NCBI GenBank assembly: GCA_039922495.1
Contig: JBDTEO010000011.1
Span: 76,439-140,438, forward strand
Direction: 5' to 3'
DNA length: 64,000 nt
From: Candidatus Dormibacter sp.
Lineage (GTDB): Bacteria; Chloroflexota; Dormibacteria; CF-121
The number at the start of each line of letters is the position of its first letter. Position 1 is the stretch's first letter. Below the pieces are notes generated by a model that was not told the origin of the DNA, searched no databases, and saw only the letters and a list, made by a program, of their open reading frames with translations. A program made the translations under genes and the position numbers. Of this stretch, positions 8,205-62,027 are shown one piece after another.

Positions 8205-9173
8205 ATGATGCCCGCGGTCAATGTCAGCCCGCTGAATTGTGCCGGCCCGAATGCCTGCGCGATCGTCAGTATCTACACGAGCATCTTCTGGATCGCGATG
8301 GCCGTCCTCGTCATCGTCGGGGGCCTCCTCATCTACGCCGCGCTGCGCTTTCGGCGGCGGGACGACATCGAGCCGCCGCAGGTCCACGGCAATACGCGGC
8401 TCGAGATCGTCTGGACCCTGATCCCGGTCCTGATCCTGTCGTTTCTCTTCATCCGCACCACGCTGCGCATGGACTACGTGCGCAACGGCCCGCCGCCGGC
8501 GATGACGGTCAAGGTGACCGGCGTGCAATTCGCCTGGCTCTACACCTACCCGGACAGCCGCGTTCGATCCGATACCCTGGTGATCCCGACCGGCAAACCG
8601 ATCCAGCTGCAAGTCACCAGTAACGACGTCCTCCATTCCTTCTGGGCGCCGCGGCTTGGCGGTCAAATCTACGCCATCCCCGGCCAGCAGAACCACGGCT
8701 GGCTCCAGGCGGATAAACCGGGCTTCTACTACGGCGAGTGCAACGAACTCTGCGGCGTTGGTCACTTTGCGATGCAGGTCAAGGTGCAGGCGATGACGCC
8801 CACCGCCTACCAGGCCTGGTACGCCCAGCGCGTAAAGCAGGCCAGTGGCGGCGGCACGCCCCCGCCCGGCGGTGGACCGGCCACCGCAGCGAAAGTCTCT
8901 GGCATCGCCGCAACCAAGACCGTTGGCGAAACGGACGACTTCAAGTTCGTGCCAACCGCCGACTCGGTCAAGGTCGGCGATGTCGTGCAGTGGGTCAACC
9001 AGGGTTCATCGGCGCACAACGTGACCTTCGGCAATAACCAGGTTCCCAGCTCGGACACGATGAACGGGGGCGACAAGTTCGAACTGAAGTTCAGCCAGCC
9101 CGGCACCTATCACTACGTGTGCACCTTCCACACCGCCTTCAACATGCAAGGCACCATCACCGTCACCCCGTGA
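8205..9173 (+). CDS. coxB: Cytochrome c oxidase subunit II with C-terminal type-1 cupredoxin domain
   Basis: HGNTRLEIVWT, DVLHSF, CuA motif CNELCGVGHFAM; extra domain HNVTF...CTFHTAFNM; GGAGG RBS. Confidence 0.93.
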   Translation: MMPAVNVSPLNCAGPNACAIVSIYTSIFWIAMAVLVIVGGLLIYAALRFRRRDDIEPPQVHGNTRLEIVWTLIPVLILSFLFIRTTLRMDYVRNGPPPAMTVKVTGVQFAWLYTYPDSRVRSDTLVIPTGKPIQLQVTSNDVLHSFWAPRLGGQIYAIPGQQNHGWLQADKPGFYYGECNELCGVGHFAMQVKVQAMTPTAYQAWYAQRVKQASGGGTPPPGGGPATAAKVSGIAATKTVGETDDFKFVPTADSVKVGDVVQWVNQGSSAHNVTFGNNQVPSSDTMNGGDKFELKFSQPGTYHYVCTFHTAFNMQGTITVTP

Positions 9174-10845: not shown

Positions 10846-12639
10846 GTGAAGGCATTTCGCGCCCTCGCCCTCGCCACCGCGGTGGTCACCTATGCCCTCG
10901 TGGTGCTGGGCGGCGTGGTGCGTGTGTCCGGCTCCGGACTCGGTTGTCCGGACTGGCCGCTGTGCCATGGGCGTCCCTATCCGCCGCTCGAAGTGCATGC
11001 CATCATCGAGTATTCGCACCGGACGACGGCCTCGCTGGCCAGCCTGCTCGTGGTGTTGACTGCCGTCGTCGCCCTGATCGCCTGGCGCCGCCGGCGTGAC
11101 ATCGTCGTCCCGGCAACCGCCGCCCTCCTGTTGTTGATCGTGCAGGTTGTCCTCGGCGCGATCACGGTCCGCCTCGAGCTGCCGCCGATCATCGTCCTGG
11201 CGCACCTGGCCACCGCCATGGCGCTGCTCGGCGCCATCTGCATCACCGTCACCCATGCCTTTGCCGGCCGCAGACCGGAGTCGATCGACCGCCGCGCCGT
11301 ACGCTGGGCCCGGGGGGCCGCCGTCGGGACCTACCTGCTCATCCTCAGTGGTTCGCTCGTCGTGGGGAGCGGCGCCAGTGGCGCCTGCGATGCCTGGCCG
11401 CTATGCGGCGGCGGGTTCAGCTTTGCCCTGGACCGGTCGCCGCTGGTGCAGTTGCTGCATCGCGGCCTGGCTGCGCTGATCGGCGTCCTCATCATCCTGG
11501 CCTTGGCCGGCATCCTCCGCCGGCACCGTCGCAACCCGGCGGTCCGCGCCACGGTCGCGCTCACCCTGGCGGCGCTGATCCTGCAGGTGGCGGTCGGCGC
11601 CGGGGTCGTGCTCCTCCACCTTCCCGCCCCGCTTCGGGGACTCCACCTTGCCCTCGCGACCGCCGTCTGGGCCGGGACCGTCGTGCTCGCGGGGTTGAGC
11701 GGGCGCCTGCCGCTTCCCGATCAGGCCGTCTCGCGTCCACAAGAGGTGCGAGCGCCTCGCCGATCGGCGGGTGAGGTCGTGCTCGACTACGTGAGCCTCG
11801 CCAAGCCGCGGATCATCGTGCTCCTGCTGGTGACCGCGCTGGGTGGAATGATGATCGCGAGCCGGGGCTGGCCCTCGACCGGGCTCGTGATTTTGACCTT
11901 GCTTGGCGGCGCGCTGGCCGCGGCCGGCGCCGGCGCGATCAACTGCTGGATCGATCGCGACATCGACGGCGAGATGTACCGGACACGACGGCGACCGATC
12001 CCGGACGGGCGGATCGCCCCGGCTCACGCGCTGACCTTCGGCATCGCGCTCGGCGTGGCCGCCTTCCTGCTGCTCGCTTTCTGGGTTAACGTGCTGGCCG
12101 CCACGCTGGCGGTCAGCGGCCTGCTCTTTTACGTCTTCGTCTACACCCTCTGGCTCAAACGCTCGACGGCGCAGAACATCGTGATCGGCGGTGCGGCCGG
12201 CGCCGTCCCGCCGCTGGTTGGCTGGGCGGCGGTGACCCACTCGATCAACCTGACCGCGATTTATCTGTTCGTGATCATCTTCCTCTGGACACCGCCCCAT
12301 TTCTGGTCGCTCGCGCTCCGCATCCAGCGCGATTACGCGCGTGTCGGCGTCCCGATGCTGCCGGTGGTCCGCGGCGAAGACGAAGCCAAGCGGCAGATCC
12401 TCCTGTACACCCTCCTGCTGGTCGCCGTGACCCTGATGCTGTTTGTCACCGGGGCGCTCGGGGGGCTGTACCTGGCGGGCGCCAGCATGCTGGGCGGCGC
12501 CTTCATCGTGTTCGCCGTGCTCAATCTCCGGGATCAGCGCCGGCGGTGGTCCCGCCCGCTCTTCGACTACTCGATCGCCTACCTCGCCCTACTCTTCGCC
12601 GTCATGGTCGCCGACCGGATCGTTGGTAGACTTGCGTGA
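10846..12639 (+). CDS. Heme A synthase / heme O synthase fusion (CtaA-CtaB)
   Basis: N-terminal half: GLGCPDWPLC, EYSHR, CDAWPLC. C-terminal half: KPRII, DRDIDGEMYRTRRRP, NIVIGG, WTPPHFW. Confidence 0.93.
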   Translation: MKAFRALALATAVVTYALVVLGGVVRVSGSGLGCPDWPLCHGRPYPPLEVHAIIEYSHRTTASLASLLVVLTAVVALIAWRRRRDIVVPATAALLLLIVQVVLGAITVRLELPPIIVLAHLATAMALLGAICITVTHAFAGRRPESIDRRAVRWARGAAVGTYLLILSGSLVVGSGASGACDAWPLCGGGFSFALDRSPLVQLLHRGLAALIGVLIILALAGILRRHRRNPAVRATVALTLAALILQVAVGAGVVLLHLPAPLRGLHLALATAVWAGTVVLAGLSGRLPLPDQAVSRPQEVRAPRRSAGEVVLDYVSLAKPRIIVLLLVTALGGMMIASRGWPSTGLVILTLLGGALAAAGAGAINCWIDRDIDGEMYRTRRRPIPDGRIAPAHALTFGIALGVAAFLLLAFWVNVLAATLAVSGLLFYVFVYTLWLKRSTAQNIVIGGAAGAVPPLVGWAAVTHSINLTAIYLFVIIFLWTPPHFWSLALRIQRDYARVGVPMLPVVRGEDEAKRQILLYTLLLVAVTLMLFVTGALGGLYLAGASMLGGAFIVFAVLNLRDQRRRWSRPLFDYSIAYLALLFAVMVADRIVGRLA

Positions 12640-18826: not shown

Positions 18827-19122
18827 CGCCGGCCGATCCGGGGATCACCTACGAGCAGGCGCTAGCTCAACTGGATAGCACCTTGCGAGCGCTCGAGGAA
18901 GGCAAGCTGAGCCTGGAAGATGCGATCGCCGCGGTCGCCCGCGGCCGCGAGTACCTTCAGCTCTGCGAGCAAAAGCTCAACGAGGCGCGGCAGCGGATCG
19001 AGAGCCTGCCGGTGCAGGAGCGCGCTGGTGATGACGAAGCGCCGCACCCGGCGACCGTGGCCCAGTTACGTGCCGGCCGCGAACCCACCCCCGGAACGCC
19101 GCAGGGAGAAATTCCCTTCTAG
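18823..19122 (+). CDS. xseB: Exodeoxyribonuclease VII small subunit
   Basis: TYEQALAQL...LEEGKLSLEDAI...CEQKL; ATGA overlap with xseA. Confidence 0.9.
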   Translation: MTPADPGITYEQALAQLDSTLRALEEGKLSLEDAIAAVARGREYLQLCEQKLNEARQRIESLPVQERAGDDEAPHPATVAQLRAGREPTPGTPQGEIPF

Positions 19123-19658
19123 GAGGTCGACCCTTCGGGCTCGTCGCTCCGCCGCTCGTGCTCGACTTCAGGTCGAGTGGGCGGCGTTTGGCCCTGTTTG
19201 AAGACGCCCCATTCTTGCAGCGACCGGCGCAGCATTTCCGGTGAGGTCTTGTAGGCGGCCGCCAGCTGTTCCAGGTCATCGCCCCGCAGGGTGACGACCC
19301 CGGTATTGAAATCATGCCGCTGCTGCTGGAGGCGGGCCACATGCCTGGCGAGGATCGAGCCCTGCCGTTCCGGCAGGCCCTGGAGCTGGTGCAGATCGAT
19401 GGCGAGCTTCGGCGGGAGGGCGGGCTCCAACAACGCATCCGTCTCCTCCGGCAGCAACTGGTTGACCGGCACGCTGTAGAGGGTGGCGATCTGGGCGAGC
19501 CGGGTCACCGAGATGTTGCGGTCGCCGCGCTCGTAGGCCGCCAGTAAGGAACCCTTGAGTCGCTTGTTGGAGAGGACCTCGACCTGTTGCAACGTCAATC
19601 CACGTTGCTTTCGAAGGCTCCTTAGCCTGGCTCCGACCTTTCGCGAATACCCGTCCAT
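19119..19658 (-). CDS. bldD: BldD-like XRE regulator with c-di-GMP-binding C-terminal domain
   Basis: GARLRSLR..GLTLQQVE, YERGDR, PKLAIDL, RHD-X8-RGDD, LQEWGV match recalled BldD architecture; AGGGGGA RBS. Confidence 0.85.
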   Translation of the reverse strand: MDGYSRKVGARLRSLRKQRGLTLQQVEVLSNKRLKGSLLAAYERGDRNISVTRLAQIATLYSVPVNQLLPEETDALLEPALPPKLAIDLHQLQGLPERQGSILARHVARLQQQRHDFNTGVVTLRGDDLEQLAAAYKTSPEMLRRSLQEWGVFKQGQTPPTRPEVEHERRSDEPEGSTS

Positions 19659-19785
19659 GTATCCCCCTTGACTGTGTGTGCTCAGTCTATCGCAGAACGC
19701 GATCTTGCACGAACGTGTTGGCTGCAGTCCGCCGGAAGGTGGTGGGGGGCTCGCCAATCGGGCGACACCACCATCCGTGGTCGCC

Positions 19786-19815
19786 ATTATGGAGGAGCTG
19801 TTTCCGCATTGTCAA
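19786..19815 (-). promoter_or_regulatory. Near-consensus sigma70 promoter of the bldD-like gene
   Basis: TTGACA-18 nt-CATAAT on the minus strand. Confidence 0.7.
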
Positions 19816-19818
19816 GTG

Positions 19819-21165
19819 CTACTTACTGCCAGAACGCTGAAGGCTTACAGGGTGGCCCGCCTCGTACGCTTGGCGAAACCGGGCGGAGGCCTGATGGGTA
19901 TCGCCTTCCTGTTCGAGCGCCCGCGCGTAGTCGTAGGCCACGCGGCCGCGCAGGTCCGGGCTGTCGATGCCGGCGGCGACCGCCAGCGCCTTCTCGAAGT
20001 GCCGGTGCGCAGGGGCGTACCGCCGTCGGGCGTGCTGTACCCGGGCGGCAATCCGATGGGTGGCGATGCTCGCGATCGGATCCGCTGATCGGGTAGCGAG
20101 GTCGAGGGCATCGTCAATCAGCGAGGTGGCTCGCTCCGGTGCACCCTGCTCGAGGGCGGCCTCCGCCATGCCGGCCACGAGCAGCGGTAACAGCTCGTGA
20201 TCGCCGACCCGCCGCAGTTGCGCCGCGCCCTCGCTGAAGATGGTCTCGGCTTCGGCCGCGCGCCCTTGCTGCAAGAGCATGTCCGCCATGTTGAGCCGGA
20301 GCTGGCCGGTCATCCTGACGTCCTGCAGGGTCTCGAAGATTCGCAGGCTCTTTTGCGCGTAGGAAAGGGCGCGCGGATACTGCCCGGTCTGCTGAAAGGA
20401 GAGCGCGAGGCCCTCGTAGATGCCGGCGAGGGCGGGCATGTCGAGAATCTGTTCGGCCGCCGCGATCGCCGCCTGATACGACGCGATCGCCTCTTCCGGC
20501 TGGCCGGCGACATAGGCCAGGTTGGCGCGGTGGCCGAGGATGCGCGCCTTGAGGACCGGGTCCGTCAGGCCGGCCTCCTGATAGAGGTCGAAGGCTCGAT
20601 CGAACCAGCGGCCCGCTTCGTGCGGCTGGCGCAACGCGTAGTAGGCGCGTCCGTGCCAGTCATACAACTCGACGAGGAGCGCCGGCGCGTTGGTTCGCTC
20701 CGCCACGGCAATCGCCTCGGCCAGCAGCGGCAGGGCGTCGGCAGCGTTGCCCCGCCGGATGTAGGCGCCGGCCAGGATGAGTTGGGCCCGGGTGCGGACC
20801 TGTTCCGGCACCTCGCGCGCCAGCACGGTTGCCATCAGGTGCTCGGCGCGCGCCGAGTCCCCCTGGTGCAAGCGAACCTCGGCCTCGGCGAGGGTCAACT
20901 CGATGGCGGCCGCCGACACCTCGGGACCCTCGAGAAAGTAGTCCACCGGCTGTTGGAGCCGGCGGGCGATGATCTGGAGCGTGTGGGTGGAAGGCTGGGC
21001 GCGACCGAGCTCGACCTGGTTGAGAAAGGCTCGGCTGAAGTCTTCACCCGCCACGGCGGCGAGACTGAGGCCAAGCTCCTGGCGGGCCTTTCGGATGCGC
21101 GAGCCCAGCGAGGCGGGTGCGGGAGCGTCCCGACGAGAACGCCCCCGCCGCTCAGTTGTAAGCAC
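19819..21165 (-). CDS. XRE HTH plus TPR-repeat regulator (RRNPP-like architecture)
   Basis: LGSRIRKARQELGLSL...FSRAFLNQVELGRAQPS HTH followed by about 8 TPR-like helical repeats; TAGACT -10 element 7 nt above the GTG. Confidence 0.88.
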   Translation of the reverse strand: MLTTERRGRSRRDAPAPASLGSRIRKARQELGLSLAAVAGEDFSRAFLNQVELGRAQPSTHTLQIIARRLQQPVDYFLEGPEVSAAAIELTLAEAEVRLHQGDSARAEHLMATVLAREVPEQVRTRAQLILAGAYIRRGNAADALPLLAEAIAVAERTNAPALLVELYDWHGRAYYALRQPHEAGRWFDRAFDLYQEAGLTDPVLKARILGHRANLAYVAGQPEEAIASYQAAIAAAEQILDMPALAGIYEGLALSFQQTGQYPRALSYAQKSLRIFETLQDVRMTGQLRLNMADMLLQQGRAAEAETIFSEGAAQLRRVGDHELLPLLVAGMAEAALEQGAPERATSLIDDALDLATRSADPIASIATHRIAARVQHARRRYAPAHRHFEKALAVAAGIDSPDLRGRVAYDYARALEQEGDTHQASARFRQAYEAGHPVSLQRSGSK

Positions 21166-60054: not shown

Positions 60055-60829
60055 TCAAGCCACCAATCGCCCGCGGGAGCCGCCGCTGATCCTGGCCTCC
60101 GCGTCGCCGCGGCGGATCGAGATCCTGGCCGCTTTTGGGGTTCGCTTCCGCACCGTGCCGGCGCGCATCGATGAGCGCCCACCGCGACCGTTGACGCCGT
60201 TGCGGCTGGCCCAATGGGCCGCCGGCGCCAAAGTGGCCGCGGTCGCCCGCCGCTTTCCGGATGCGACCGTGGTTGGCGCCGACACCGTGGTCGCCCTGGA
60301 CGGCCGGGCTTACGGCAAGCCCGTCGACGAGGCCGGCGCGGCAGCCATGCTGCGGACGCTGTCCGGCCGGACGCACGTCGTCTATACCGCGGTCGCGGTG
60401 CGCTGCGGGCGAGGACGGCGTAAGACCGATGGGTACTCCCGCACCTATGTCACCATGCGTGATCTTTCACCTCGCGTGATCGCTACCTACCTGCAGACCG
60501 GCGAGGCGCAGGATAAGGCCGGTGCCTACGCTATACAGGGCGAAGGTCGGCGGCTTGTGCGTTCGATCCGCGGACCCTATGACAATGTCGTCGGAATGCC
60601 GATGCACCTGGTCGAGCGCTTGCTGCAGGCCTGCGGCATGACGGTTTGGGTAATCAATGCGGATGGAGCACAGCACGATCCAGATACGAGACGGCCGCGA
60701 GCGGCGCGGCAGGGTTGGGGCCGGCCTGATCCTCCTCTTGCTGAGCGCGATCGCTCTCGCGGGGTGCGGCGCCGCAAGCAGCTCGCGGCTGGTGATCACC
60801 CAGAGCACCGACGTCACCAGCGGTCCTGA
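60047..60829 (+). CDS. maf: Maf nucleotide pyrophosphatase
   Basis: LILASASPRR, GADTVV, GKP, LSGRTH, DKAGAY.IQG, NVVGMP; C-terminal extension overlaps the next gene. Confidence 0.92.
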   Translation: MSDQATNRPREPPLILASASPRRIEILAAFGVRFRTVPARIDERPPRPLTPLRLAQWAAGAKVAAVARRFPDATVVGADTVVALDGRAYGKPVDEAGAAAMLRTLSGRTHVVYTAVAVRCGRGRRKTDGYSRTYVTMRDLSPRVIATYLQTGEAQDKAGAYAIQGEGRRLVRSIRGPYDNVVGMPMHLVERLLQACGMTVWVINADGAQHDPDTRRPRAARQGWGRPDPPLAERDRSRGVRRRKQLAAGDHPEHRRHQRS

Positions 60830-62027
60830 TCACAAGGGCCATCTCGCCCCCGGGGCGTTTGCCGGGATCACGCTCTCGATCCGCAACACCGGAACCGGTC
60901 CCGCCCGCGGCCTGACGATCGAAGATGTGCTGCCGGCCGGCTTTCGTTACTACGAGCTGACCACGCTCGGTGGCAATGCCATCCGGACGGCGGTCAGCGA
61001 TCCGGCCGCCTCCGGGAATCCTCGCTGGGGGACCTTCACCATCCCGGCGGGCACCGCCACCCGCGAGAGCGCGCTGGTCATCAGCTTCAAGGTGCAGGCC
61101 GCCAGCAAGCCCGGCGACTACCAGAATCACATCAAGGTGGTCAGTTCGACCGCGGTGGAGCTCGACCAGGGGGACCCGGTCGCCCTGGTGATCGAACCGC
61201 GGCCGGCGCTGAACCTGACCACTGCGGCGACGACCGCCCAGGTCAACACCGGCGGCACGGCCACCTACGTCGTCTCCGTCGCCAACGTGGGCTCCGCCAC
61301 CGCCAAAGGGGTGGCGGTCTCGGTTAGCCTGCCCCCCGGCTTTCTCTACCAGGCGACCTCGGCCTACGAGGGCAACAGCTCGCGCACCCAGTCGGTCGAT
61401 CCGCCGGCCGGCAGCTTGCTGCCGGTCTGGGCCTCGTGGGATGTGCCCGGCGCGGCCAACGGCGCGCCCGGGTCGCTGCGGCTCACCTTCCAGGCGCGCG
61501 TCCTGCCGGCGGTGAAGCCCGGCCTGTATAGCGTGACGAGCGCGGTGACCGGCGTCAACGACATCCCGGCCCAGACGATTGGCAACAGTGCCTCGATCGC
61601 GGTCGGCAAGGGGACCTCGATCCCGGTGGTGATGACCGTCTCGCCGATTGGGCCCTACACCAGTCAGGACGGGACCGTGAGCTACACGATCACGGTCGAA
61701 AACGACAGCAACGATGCCGCCCAGGCGGTGACGGTCACCGACACCCTGCCCCAGGGGTTCAGCTTCAAGTCGACGTTCGGCATCACGATCAATGGCAAGG
61801 CCGCCACGTCGCGCCTCCAACCGGCCGCGGGCGGCGGGACACCCCAGTGGGGGCCCTTTACGATTCCCGCCGGCGGGTTCAACGGCGCCACCCTTACGAT
61901 CATCTTTACCGCGAAGCTCGCCTCGGCCTCGCTCGGTCCGCACACCAACGTCGTCTCCGGTAATAGCAGCAATGCCCAGATCACCGGCGCCTCCGACCAG
62001 AATCCAGTCGTCGTCACGGCCGGCTGA
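60657..62027 (+). CDS. Lipoprotein with three DUF11-like Ig repeats
   Basis: Lipobox LAGC; three repeats of N.G...A..V...D.LP.GF. Confidence 0.85.
   Translation: MRMEHSTIQIRDGRERRGRVGAGLILLLLSAIALAGCGAASSSRLVITQSTDVTSGPDHKGHLAPGAFAGITLSIRNTGTGPARGLTIEDVLPAGFRYYELTTLGGNAIRTAVSDPAASGNPRWGTFTIPAGTATRESALVISFKVQAASKPGDYQNHIKVVSSTAVELDQGDPVALVIEPRPALNLTTAATTAQVNTGGTATYVVSVANVGSATAKGVAVSVSLPPGFLYQATSAYEGNSSRTQSVDPPAGSLLPVWASWDVPGAANGAPGSLRLTFQARVLPAVKPGLYSVTSAVTGVNDIPAQTIGNSASIAVGKGTSIPVVMTVSPIGPYTSQDGTVSYTITVENDSNDAAQAVTVTDTLPQGFSFKSTFGITINGKAATSRLQPAAGGGTPQWGPFTIPAGGFNGATLTIIFTAKLASASLGPHTNVVSGNSSNAQITGASDQNPVVVTAG

What the first reader, a model, noticed from the sequence alone, without database searches (positions are those of the whole stretch)
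19119..19658. BldD homologue with intact RxD-X8-RxxD c-di-GMP signature in an apparently non-actinobacterial genome
Seen: the N-terminal XRE domain has YERGDR, and the C-terminal domain has PKLAIDL, QRHDFNTGVVTLRGDDL and LQEWGV. Established: Streptomyces BldD binds tetrameric c-di-GMP through RxD-X8-RxxD and is regarded as actinobacterial. Surrounding genes (split b6 with subunit IV, A2 oxidase, CtaA-CtaB fusion) do not look like typical Actinomycetes. The recognition helix differs (KGSLLAAY versus recalled KAVVVGSY), so DNA specificity may have shifted.
Basis: partly seen in the sequence, partly recalled or inferred. Interest (0 to 1): 0.78.

Follow-up and report, generated by a model that had tools for sequence, protein, structure and literature searches.

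The report
BldD-type c-di-GMP regulator outside Actinomycetota
This gene encodes a close structural copy of BldD, the c-di-GMP-sensing master repressor of Streptomyces, but it sits in an uncultured soil bacterium that is not an actinobacterium, where it appears to control itself and an enzyme that makes and breaks c-di-GMP.

Summary
Window 19119-19658 (-) encodes a 179-aa protein with an XRE helix-turn-helix domain and a BldD-like C-terminal domain (Pfam PF21179, E 3.4e-20). K84, R114, D116, R125 and D128 align to the c-di-GMP-contacting residues of Streptomyces BldD. The predicted fold matches both BldD domains.

The host is not an actinobacterium. The closest records are titled Candidatus Dormiibacterota, Chloroflexota or Limnocylindria. 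WhiB genes were found in 0 of 43 genomes of its order, against 5 of 5 actinobacterial BldD holders.

The gene is found in 40 of 43 genomes of that order. It was not found in 108 other genomes of the class, nor over cut-off in 393 others of the phylum sample. Horizontal acquisition from Actinomycetota is therefore the most economical reading.

The published BldD box, TNAC-N5-GTNA, lies 23 nt upstream of the gene in 29 of 39 relatives; the window has one mismatch. Two boxes are conserved in the promoter of a GGDEF-EAL gene. DNA specificity therefore looks retained rather than shifted.

This is a new member of a known family in an unexpected lineage. Binding of c-di-GMP is inferred, not shown.

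The parts
19119..19658 (-). bldD-like gene, 179 aa (P0001)
   Evidence: Pfam PF21179 plus HTH_31. It is the only copy in the genome.
19461..19634 (-). XRE-type helix-turn-helix DNA-binding domain (residues 9-66)
   Evidence: HTH_31 at E 6.5e-11. Matches 2ewt at E 3.1e-15. Foldseek TM 0.94, rmsd 0.8 A to 2ewt.
19203..19409 (-). BldD-like C-terminal domain (residues 84-152)
   Evidence: PF21179 at 72.1 bits. [quoted passage not shown]
19311..19319 (-). Motif 1, R114-H115-D116 (RxD)
   Evidence: Aligned to RGD of BldD. Read from the sequence.
19275..19286 (-). Motif 2, R125-G126-D127-D128 (RxxD)
   Evidence: Aligned to RQDD of BldD. Read from the sequence.
19669..19681 (-). BldD-box-like site GCACACACAGTCA, one mismatch to TNAC-N5-GTNA, between the putative -10 and the ribosome-binding site
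   Evidence: The same position holds an exact box in 29 of 39 distinct upstream regions of the order. The box consensus comes from PMC4151990.
19684..19689 (-). Putative -10 element TAGACT of a proximal promoter (P2)
   Evidence: Invariant in 33 of 33 aligned leaders. TAGACTGA occurs 13 times in the genome; my crude gene calls place 11 in intergenic DNA, mostly just upstream of start codons. This is an inference.
19786..19815 (-). Putative distal promoter P1: TTGACA, 18-nt spacer, CATAAT
   Evidence: Conserved in the alignments. Read. This is an inference; no transcript data are available.
19732..19780 (-). Conserved 5' leader stem-loop with an unpaired C-rich bulge
   Evidence: On 33 sequences 95.5% of cells are paired, 5 pairs show compensatory change, and 0 of 500 shuffles reach the score. 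RNAalifold finds the same stems. It occurs once in the genome.
19819..21165 (-). XRE-HTH plus TPR regulator gene, always directly upstream on the same strand; role unknown
   Evidence: Pfam HTH_3 plus TPR_12. Adjacent in 16 of 16 loci of the order. Absent next to bldD in 99 actinobacterial loci.
60450..60479 (.). Two exact TNAC-N5-GTNA boxes 17 nt apart, about 180-200 nt upstream of a DUF11-repeat protein gene (60657-62027); a candidate target only
   Evidence: The window as a whole has 5 boxes against 4.6 expected, so this may be chance.

Best explanation
The gene encodes a BldD-family transcription factor. By analogy with Streptomyces BldD, two C-terminal domains are probably joined by a c-di-GMP tetramer held by R114/D116 and R125/D128, with K84. 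That brings the two N-terminal helix-turn-helix domains together on a pseudo-palindromic TNAC-N5-GTNA operator, so the protein represses transcription when c-di-GMP is high. Its likely targets include its own proximal promoter and the promoter of a membrane sensor-PAS-GAF-PAS-GGDEF-EAL enzyme, which would close a feedback loop on c-di-GMP. The gene is a stable core gene of one order of an uncultured, non-actinobacterial soil lineage (Dormibacteria-like, within a Chloroflexota-sized phylum). It was most probably acquired long ago from an actinobacterium. Shown here: domain identity, fold, residue conservation, taxonomic distribution, synteny and operator-like footprints. Inferred: ligand binding, dimerisation, repression, and the direction of transfer.
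For: Family and fold: PF21179 at E 3.4e-20 and HTH_31. Solved BldD domains match at E 3e-15 and 6e-14. The AlphaFold2 model has pLDDT 88, and both domains superpose on BldD structures with TM 0.88-0.94.

Ligand residues: K84, R114, D116, R125 and D128 are in register with BldD. PMC4151990 states that these four Arg/Asp residues are essential (passages). RxD-X8-RxxD is kept in 80 of 80 related loci, and in all 35 further copies fetched from the order plus 30 of 30 actinobacterial sample copies. Within the order the protein is more conserved (83-94% identity) than its neighbours (66-81%).

c-di-GMP machinery: the genome has 13 GGDEF and 3 EAL matches.

Operators: an exact TNAC-N5-GTNA box lies 22-25 nt upstream of the start codon in 29 of 39 distinct upstream regions of the order, against 1.3 expected from shuffles. 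As a positive control, 10 of 10 Streptomyces-type loci carry two boxes. In 27 orthologous GGDEF-EAL promoters, a box at -88 is exact in 23 and a box at -59 is exact in 25. The half-sites are invariant and the central spacer columns are the most variable. That enzyme has intact GGDEF, RxxD I-site and EAL motifs and a MASE3-like/PAS/GAF sensor part.

Host and origin: PF21179 was found in f1 in 39 of 42 genomes, in f2-f5 in 0 of 108, and over cut-off in 0 of 393 other genomes of the phylum sample. It was found in 150 of 401 Actinomycetota genomes. WhiB was found in 0 of 43 against 5 of 5. The order's copies form one clade (SH-aLRT 99) on a long stem of 1.67 changes per column. Synteny XRE-TPR / bldD-like / xseB / xseA holds in 15 of 16 loci.
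Against: No binding or expression data exist. The NCBIfam BldD equivalog model scores 149 bits against a cut-off of 250, so by NCBI's criterion it is not an orthologue with assured equal function. In this very window the own-promoter site has a mismatch in one half-site (GCAC), and the window holds no more boxes than chance predicts: 5 against 4.6. Genome-wide, the N5 spacing is not more frequent than other spacings. The box counts come from related sequences and are not independent. Another regulator, for example the adjacent XRE-TPR protein, could be what binds these sites. Only 5 of 69 Acidimicrobiia-type loci have a box upstream, so autoregulation is not universal in the family. The tree is unrooted and was built with the quick method. 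The clade is not nested inside any actinobacterial group, so the donor and the direction of transfer are not demonstrated. Two of five sequences of a sister group of unknown origin (P0100, P0104) have lost D116.
Confidence: 0.68

Rival explanations
1. The fold and motif are inherited, but the protein no longer senses c-di-GMP. It would act as a ligand-independent XRE repressor, or respond to another ligand or partner, such as the adjacent XRE-TPR protein.
For: It scores below the BldD equivalog cut-off. The recognition helix and many surface residues differ, with 44% identity to Streptomyces-type BldD. A sister group shows that the motif can decay: RHA and RQA in P0100 and P0104. The XRE-TPR neighbour is invariably present.
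Against: All four specificity residues and K84 are kept in every copy examined in the order, across 65-94% identity. The genome keeps 13 GGDEF and 3 EAL domains. A box pair sits in front of a c-di-GMP enzyme gene.
Confidence: 0.17
2. The gene was inherited vertically from a common ancestor of Actinomycetota and this lineage, and lost everywhere else in the phylum.
For: The clade is not nested within any sampled actinobacterial clade, and it sits on a long stem. Synteny within the order is old and stable.
Against: This would need loss in all four other families of the class (0 of 108) and in every other sampled family of the phylum (0 of 393 over cut-off). Fifteen loci of the sister family f3 keep xseA-xseB, but no bldD-like or XRE-TPR gene lies in the fetched flanks.
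Confidence: 0.12
3. The gene is an assembly or binning artefact: an actinobacterial contig wrongly placed in this genome bin.
For: The genome is a metagenome-style assembly of 46 contigs. One cluster member carries a discordant label, Candidatus Eisenbacteria.
Against: The gene is present in 40 of 43 genomes of the order, several on contigs over 200 kb. Housekeeping neighbours are the same throughout. The nearest actinobacterial proteins are at most 50% identical. No WhiB gene is found in any of the 43 genomes.
Confidence: 0.02

Closest known systems
Streptomyces BldD (structures 2EWT and 4OB4 for the DNA-binding domain; 4OAY, 4OAZ and 5KHD for the CTD-c-di-GMP complex)
   Same: The two-domain architecture is the same, and both folds match (TM 0.88-0.94). 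K84, R114, D116, R125 and D128 sit at the same positions. A TNAC-N5-GTNA site lies upstream of its own gene in most relatives; TCACACACAGTCA differs from the Streptomyces upstream box TCACAGTGAGTCA only in the three central bases. Candidate boxes sit in front of a diguanylate cyclase-type gene, as PMC8325347 and PMC13595943 report for Streptomyces cdg genes (passages).
   Different: Identity is only 44%, and the score is below the NCBIfam equivalog cut-off. Recognition-helix residues differ. The host is non-actinobacterial, lacks WhiB and has no known sporulation. The neighbourhood is different (XRE-TPR and xseAB). The gene carries a structured 5' leader that is not found in 99 actinobacterial loci.
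BldD-like proteins of Acidimicrobiia and other uncultured Actinomycetota (loci L013-L081)
   Same: These are the nearest relatives outside the order, at 37-50% identity. All keep the motif. They group with the order's clade against Streptomyces-type sequences on a branch with SH-aLRT 97. They are also non-sporulating lineages, as far as I recall.
   Different: They form a separate clade (SH-aLRT 95). Only 5 of 69 have a BldD box within 200 nt upstream. None has XRE-TPR or xseAB neighbours.
Generic XRE-family repressors (C.AhdI, ClgR, DdrO, SinR)
   Same: The N-terminal helix-turn-helix fold matches.
   Different: They lack the BldD C-terminal domain and the c-di-GMP signature.

Membership tests
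BldD family (XRE HTH + BldD-like_C, PF21179) | N-terminal XRE-type helix-turn-helix DNA-binding domain | tested here: met
   HTH_31 at E 6.5e-11. 2ewt matches at E 3.1e-15. TM 0.94.
BldD family (XRE HTH + BldD-like_C, PF21179) | C-terminal BldD-like domain over Pfam's gathering score, with a matching fold | tested here: met
   72.1 bits against a cut-off of 27. TM 0.88-0.92 to 4oaz and 5khd.
BldD family (XRE HTH + BldD-like_C, PF21179) | Bipartite RxD-X8-RxxD signature plus K/R84 | tested here: met
   K84, R114-H-D116 and R125-G-D-D128 are aligned to BldD. They are conserved in all copies of the order that were examined.
BldD family (XRE HTH + BldD-like_C, PF21179) | Binds tetrameric c-di-GMP and dimerises through it | not testable with these tools
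   This needs DRaCALA, ITC, SEC-MALS or a crystal structure.
BldD family (XRE HTH + BldD-like_C, PF21179) | Recognises the TNAC-N5-GTNA box, including at its own promoter | tested here: inconclusive
   The window site has one mismatch (19669-19681). An exact box is found in 29 of 39 relatives at the same place, and in 23 and 25 of 27 GGDEF-EAL promoters. There is no genome-wide enrichment. No binding assay was possible.
BldD family (XRE HTH + BldD-like_C, PF21179) | Host encodes GGDEF diguanylate cyclases | tested here: met
   13 GGDEF and 3 EAL matches in the genome.
NCBIfam NF050110 'transcriptional regulator BldD' (equivalog) | Score at or above the curated cut-off of 250 bits | tested here: not met
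   149.3 bits. The protein is a family member but is not filed as an equivalog of Streptomyces BldD.
c-di-GMP-II-GCG riboswitch (Rfam RF03170), considered for the 5' leader | Score at or above the gathering score, and presence of the aptamer core | tested here: not met
   20.1 bits against 47.9. The 44 central model positions are replaced by 2 nt. The matching UGGCGAGCCC string is not conserved in the other genera. No hit was found in 10 related loci.

The most novel reading that the evidence does not exclude
A complete BldD-c-di-GMP feedback module crossed a phylum boundary long ago and became a core regulator of an uncultured Dormibacteria-like order that has no hyphae or spores. The module comprises the sensor-repressor, its operator grammar, and a GGDEF-EAL target. 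In this lineage the gene has also gained a second layer of control, through a lineage-specific structured 5' leader and an invariably linked XRE-TPR regulator. If so, BldD is a general c-di-GMP switch for growth-versus-persistence decisions rather than a device for actinomycete development.
Probability: 0.2. Interest if true: 0.65.

Novelty: new member of a known kind. Interest (0 to 1): 0.45.

Why it matters
BldD is the textbook case of a transcription factor dimerised by a c-di-GMP tetramer. It is listed as lineage-specific to actinobacteria (passage of PMC12448109). A conserved, apparently functional copy in a different phylum-level lineage shows that the mechanism is portable and not tied to sporulation. 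It also gives a natural, divergent sequence (44% identical) in which to test which residues the tetramer cage really needs. Finally, it offers a first handle on c-di-GMP regulation in an uncultured soil group: candidate operators in front of a sensor GGDEF-EAL enzyme and of the regulator itself. My searches found no paper on this. BldD with 'Dormibacter' gave 0 papers. BldD with 'Chloroflexi' gave 3 papers, of which I read two; neither mentions a homologue there. The third, PMC13657050, I saw only in the search listing. The sequences themselves are already in public databases under generic names. The advance is therefore one of annotation and distribution, not a new mechanism.

Tried and rejected
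1. c-di-GMP-II-like riboswitch in the leader. The only Rfam hit was RF03170 at 20.1 bits (gathering score 47.9, E 0.18-0.36). It lacks the aptamer core and is not conserved in relatives, so I rejected it. The whole window at gathering thresholds gave only three tRNAs.

2. Complex prediction with two C-terminal domains plus four c-di-GMP. The verdict was 'no answer', score 0.02. This is not evidence either way.

3. Genome-wide enrichment of the box. TNAC-N5-GTNA occurs 141 times. My crude gene calls place 75 of these in intergenic DNA. Other spacings give similar intergenic counts. TCAC-N5-GTGA is 57% intergenic, against about 24% for permuted half-sites, but the numbers are small and the gene calls are my own crude ones. 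This is not used as support.

4. Co-transfer of the XRE-TPR neighbour. No homologue lies next to bldD in 99 actinobacterial loci.

5. A clean 'empty site' in the sister family. Only xseA-xseB is syntenic; the flanks differ. This is suggestive only.

6. The leader RNA elsewhere. It occurs once in the genome. In 100 other loci only two weak opposite-strand hits appeared.

7. The full leader is not more stable than shuffled sequence (z -0.91).

8. RNA sequencing runs: none was listed.

9. Earlier scan notes: nothing relevant.

10. Origin of the sister group P0096-P0104. No source gives a name, and it is not in the 43 genomes of the order.

11. Supplementary files of the papers were not seen. Figure S7 of PMC4151990, the alignment of BldD homologues, might bear on the taxon range known in 2014.

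Full report
**The observation**

Window 19119-19658 on the minus strand is an open frame of 179 codons. A GGGGGA ribosome-binding site lies four bases before the ATG at 19658. The mechanical ORF extends to 19787, but relatives begin at the shorter start.

- Pfam finds an XRE helix-turn-helix (HTH_31, E 6.5e-11, residues 9-66) and the BldD-like C-terminal domain (PF21179, E 3.4e-20, 72.1 bits against a cut-off of 27, residues 84-152).
- Against solved structures, residues 3-70 match the BldD DNA-binding domain (2ewt, E 3.1e-15). Residues 82-154 match the BldD C-terminal domain (5khd and 4oay, E about 1e-13).
- In that alignment QRHDFNTGVVTLRGDDL lies over QRGDYNGKVLSIRQDDL. R114, D116, R125 and D128, and also K84, therefore fall on the residues that Tschowri et al. 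2014 describe as contacting c-di-GMP (PMC4151990; passages read).
- An AlphaFold2 model built on 123 sequences has mean pLDDT 88, with only the inter-domain linker uncertain.
- Foldseek places the two halves on BldD structures with TM 0.94 (2ewt) and 0.88-0.92 (4oaz and 5khd, the c-di-GMP complexes).

**The host**

The window is part of a 2.88-Mb, 46-contig genome that is 94% complete. It holds a single copy of the domain.

- The 11 closest genomic loci (65-94% identity) lie in records titled Candidatus Dormiibacterota (8), Chloroflexota or Chloroflexi (2) and Candidatus Limnocylindria (1). The next 69 loci (37-50% identity) are Acidimicrobiia and other Actinomycetota.
- NCBI ranks Candidatus Dormiibacterota as a phylum of its own.
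- The grouping used by the genome search puts the genome in a large phylum, with more than 80 families in a 401-genome sample. I take this phylum to be Chloroflexota; that is my inference.
- As an independent marker I used the WhiB family, which I recall as a hallmark of Actinomycetota. It is found in 0 of 43 genomes of the host's order. It is found at 5-8 copies in 5 of 5 actinobacterial genomes that carry BldD.

The host is therefore not an actinobacterium.

**Distribution**

- PF21179 is found in 39 of 42 other genomes of the host's family f1, and in 0 of 108 genomes of the four other families of the class.
- It is over cut-off in none of the 393 genomes outside f1 in the phylum sample. One sub-threshold hit of 21.9 bits was seen.
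- The family is the only one in its order, where 40 of 43 genomes carry the gene. The three genomes without it are 71-91% complete.
- In a 401-genome sample of the phylum of an Acidimicrobiales genome, 150 genomes have the domain.
- The language-model atlas lists only clusters whose known taxa are mostly Actinomycetota.
- Exhaustive HMMER finds 743 representatives at E 1e-10 or better. These are unnamed.

**Within the order**

- The arrangement is fixed: a tRNA gene, an XRE-TPR regulator gene, bldD-like, then convergent xseB and xseA. This holds in 15 of 16 loci; the sixteenth is a paralogue that keeps only the XRE-TPR neighbour.
- The protein is more conserved (83-94%) than XseA, XseB or the TPR protein (66-81%).
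- One genus carries extra paralogues.
- Fifteen loci of the sister family f3 keep xseA-xseB but have neither bldD-like nor the TPR gene in the fetched flanks.
- None of 99 actinobacterial bldD loci has these neighbours.

**Phylogeny**

I built a quick maximum-likelihood tree of 122 rows. I kept 18 representative copies of the order and dropped rows outside 140-230 aa.

- The order's copies form one clade (SH-aLRT 99).
- That clade joins five metagenomic sequences of unknown origin (P0096-P0104) in a larger clade (SH-aLRT 99) with a stem of 1.67 changes per column.
- That larger clade groups with the Acidimicrobiia-rich clade (69 rows, SH-aLRT 95). A branch with SH-aLRT 97 separates both from the Streptomyces-type sequences.
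- The tree is unrooted, and long branches were flagged. The clade is not nested in any actinobacterial group.

Given the distribution, a single old acquisition from Actinomycetota is the economical reading. Neither the donor nor the direction is demonstrated.

**Does it work like BldD?**

*The ligand side.* RxD-X8-RxxD is present in 80 of 80 related loci, and in all 35 further copies from the order and 30 of 30 actinobacterial sample copies. In the unknown sister group, two of five sequences have lost D116, which shows that the motif is not frozen by descent alone. The genome has 13 GGDEF and 3 EAL domains.

*The DNA side.* The published BldD box is 5'-TNAC(N)5GTNA-3' (PMC4151990).

- As a control I scanned the 200 nt upstream of each gene. 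All 10 Streptomyces-type loci carry two boxes, as expected for an autoregulated gene.
- In the order, 29 of 39 distinct upstream regions carry an exact box 22-25 nt before the start codon, usually TCACACACAGTCA. Shuffling predicts 1.3.
- These sequences are related, so the count is not a probability. However, where the site varies it does so in the spacer (ACACA, GATCA, GAACA, AGTCA, AGACA), while the half-sites stay.
- The window itself has GCACACACAGTCA at 19669-19681, which is one mismatch.
- The site lies between an invariant TAGACT and the ribosome-binding site. TAGACT looks like a -10 element: TAGACTGA occurs 13 times in the genome, and my crude gene calls place 11 of them in intergenic DNA, mostly just before start codons.

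*A second target.* Scanning the genome for boxes near gene starts picked out the promoter of a 1157-aa protein, G000:C19:145214-148687.

- Its domains are MASE3-like membrane sensor, PAS, GAF, PAS, GGDEF and EAL. The GGDEF, I-site and EAL motifs are intact.
- Its promoter has overlapping boxes at -69 and -59, and a one-mismatch site at -88.
- I analysed 27 orthologous promoters from two genera. Thirty loci were returned, and three from flagged genomes were dropped. The -88 box is exact in 23 and the -59 box in 25. The TAAC and GT(G/C)A half-sites are invariant, and the central spacer columns are the most variable positions of the whole conserved block.
- This is the footprint expected of a dimeric regulator with BldD's published specificity. 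It parallels the repression of diguanylate cyclase genes by BldD in Streptomyces (passages of PMC8325347 and PMC13595943).

*Against over-reading.* Box frequency in the window (5 against 4.6 expected) and in the genome is unremarkable. Only 5 of 69 Acidimicrobiia-type loci have an upstream box. Nothing shows which protein binds these sites.

**A side finding: a structured leader**

Upstream of the proximal promoter lies a near-consensus TTGACA-N18-CATAAT (19786-19815). It is followed by a 49-nt stem-loop (19732-19780) with an unpaired, invariant C-rich bulge.

- On 33 sequences, 95.5% of cells pair and five pairs show compensatory changes. No shuffle of 500 reaches the covariation score, and slid controls pair at 25-48%.
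- RNAalifold finds the same stems.
- A covariance model finds it once in the genome. It gives nothing convincing in 100 other loci, 99 of them actinobacterial.
- Rfam's only hit is a sub-threshold match to the c-di-GMP-II-GCG riboswitch. That match consists of the outer stem plus a ten-base string and lacks the aptamer core, so I reject it.
- The C-run could pair with the GGGGG of the ribosome-binding site. That is speculation.

**Verdict**

This is a genuine BldD-family regulator with an intact c-di-GMP signature in a non-actinobacterial, uncultured soil lineage. It is a stable core gene of one order.

It most likely works as in Streptomyces: a c-di-GMP-dependent repressor, with itself and a GGDEF-EAL sensor enzyme among its targets. 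It was most likely acquired horizontally long ago.

It scores below NCBI's equivalog cut-off (149 against 250 bits). I therefore file it as a divergent member of the family, not as 'the' BldD. Binding, repression and the direction of transfer remain inferences.

The tallies include a few genomes that the tool flags as unpublished.

Noticed in passing
window 19732-19780 (-): A conserved 49-nt 5' leader stem-loop with an invariant unpaired C-rich bulge precedes the bldD-like gene. It has compensatory base changes across 33 sequences, occurs once in the genome, and matches no Rfam family.
   Followed up: yes
window 19819-21165 (-): An XRE-HTH plus TPR regulator of 448 aa is always directly upstream of bldD-like in the order, even beside a diverged paralogue. 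It is never next to actinobacterial bldD. Its architecture recalls peptide-sensing HTH-TPR regulators; that comparison is from memory and untested.
   Followed up: partly
G000:C19:145120-145215 (locus L165 620-715): A near-perfect 23-bp palindrome made of two overlapping BldD-type boxes, plus a third one-mismatch box, lies upstream of a MASE3-like/PAS/GAF/PAS/GGDEF/EAL gene. It is conserved in 23-25 of 27 orthologous promoters.
   Followed up: yes
window 60450-60479: Two exact TNAC-N5-GTNA boxes 17 nt apart lie about 180-200 nt upstream of a DUF11-repeat, probably cell-surface, protein gene (60657-62027). I did not check whether they are conserved in relatives.
   Followed up: partly
genome-wide, e.g. 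window 19684-19691: TAGACTGA occurs 13 times in the genome. My crude gene calls place 11 in intergenic DNA, mostly 5-40 nt before start codons. This suggests a TAGACT-type -10 element with short or absent leaders in this lineage.
   Followed up: partly
loci L132, L133, L137-L139 and L012 (genus g5): One genus of the order carries two diverged bldD-like paralogues (65-73% identical to the window's protein), each with the motif intact. One keeps the distal promoter but has a short leader. The other has only the TAGACT element.
   Followed up: partly
proteins P0096, P0099, P0100, P0102, P0104: This is a sister group of five metagenomic BldD-like proteins (54-60% identical) of unknown origin. It is not found in the 43 genomes of the order. 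Two of the five have alanine in place of D116.
   Followed up: partly
window 10846-12639 (+) and 8205-9173 (+): A CtaA (COX15) and CtaB (UbiA) fusion protein of 597 aa, and a cytochrome oxidase subunit II with a fused C-terminal cupredoxin domain.
   Followed up: partly
G018:C2:236027-237380: In one genome of the same genus, the XseA match is split into two pieces (residues 1-333 and 325-451). This may be a frameshift or an assembly error.
   Followed up: no
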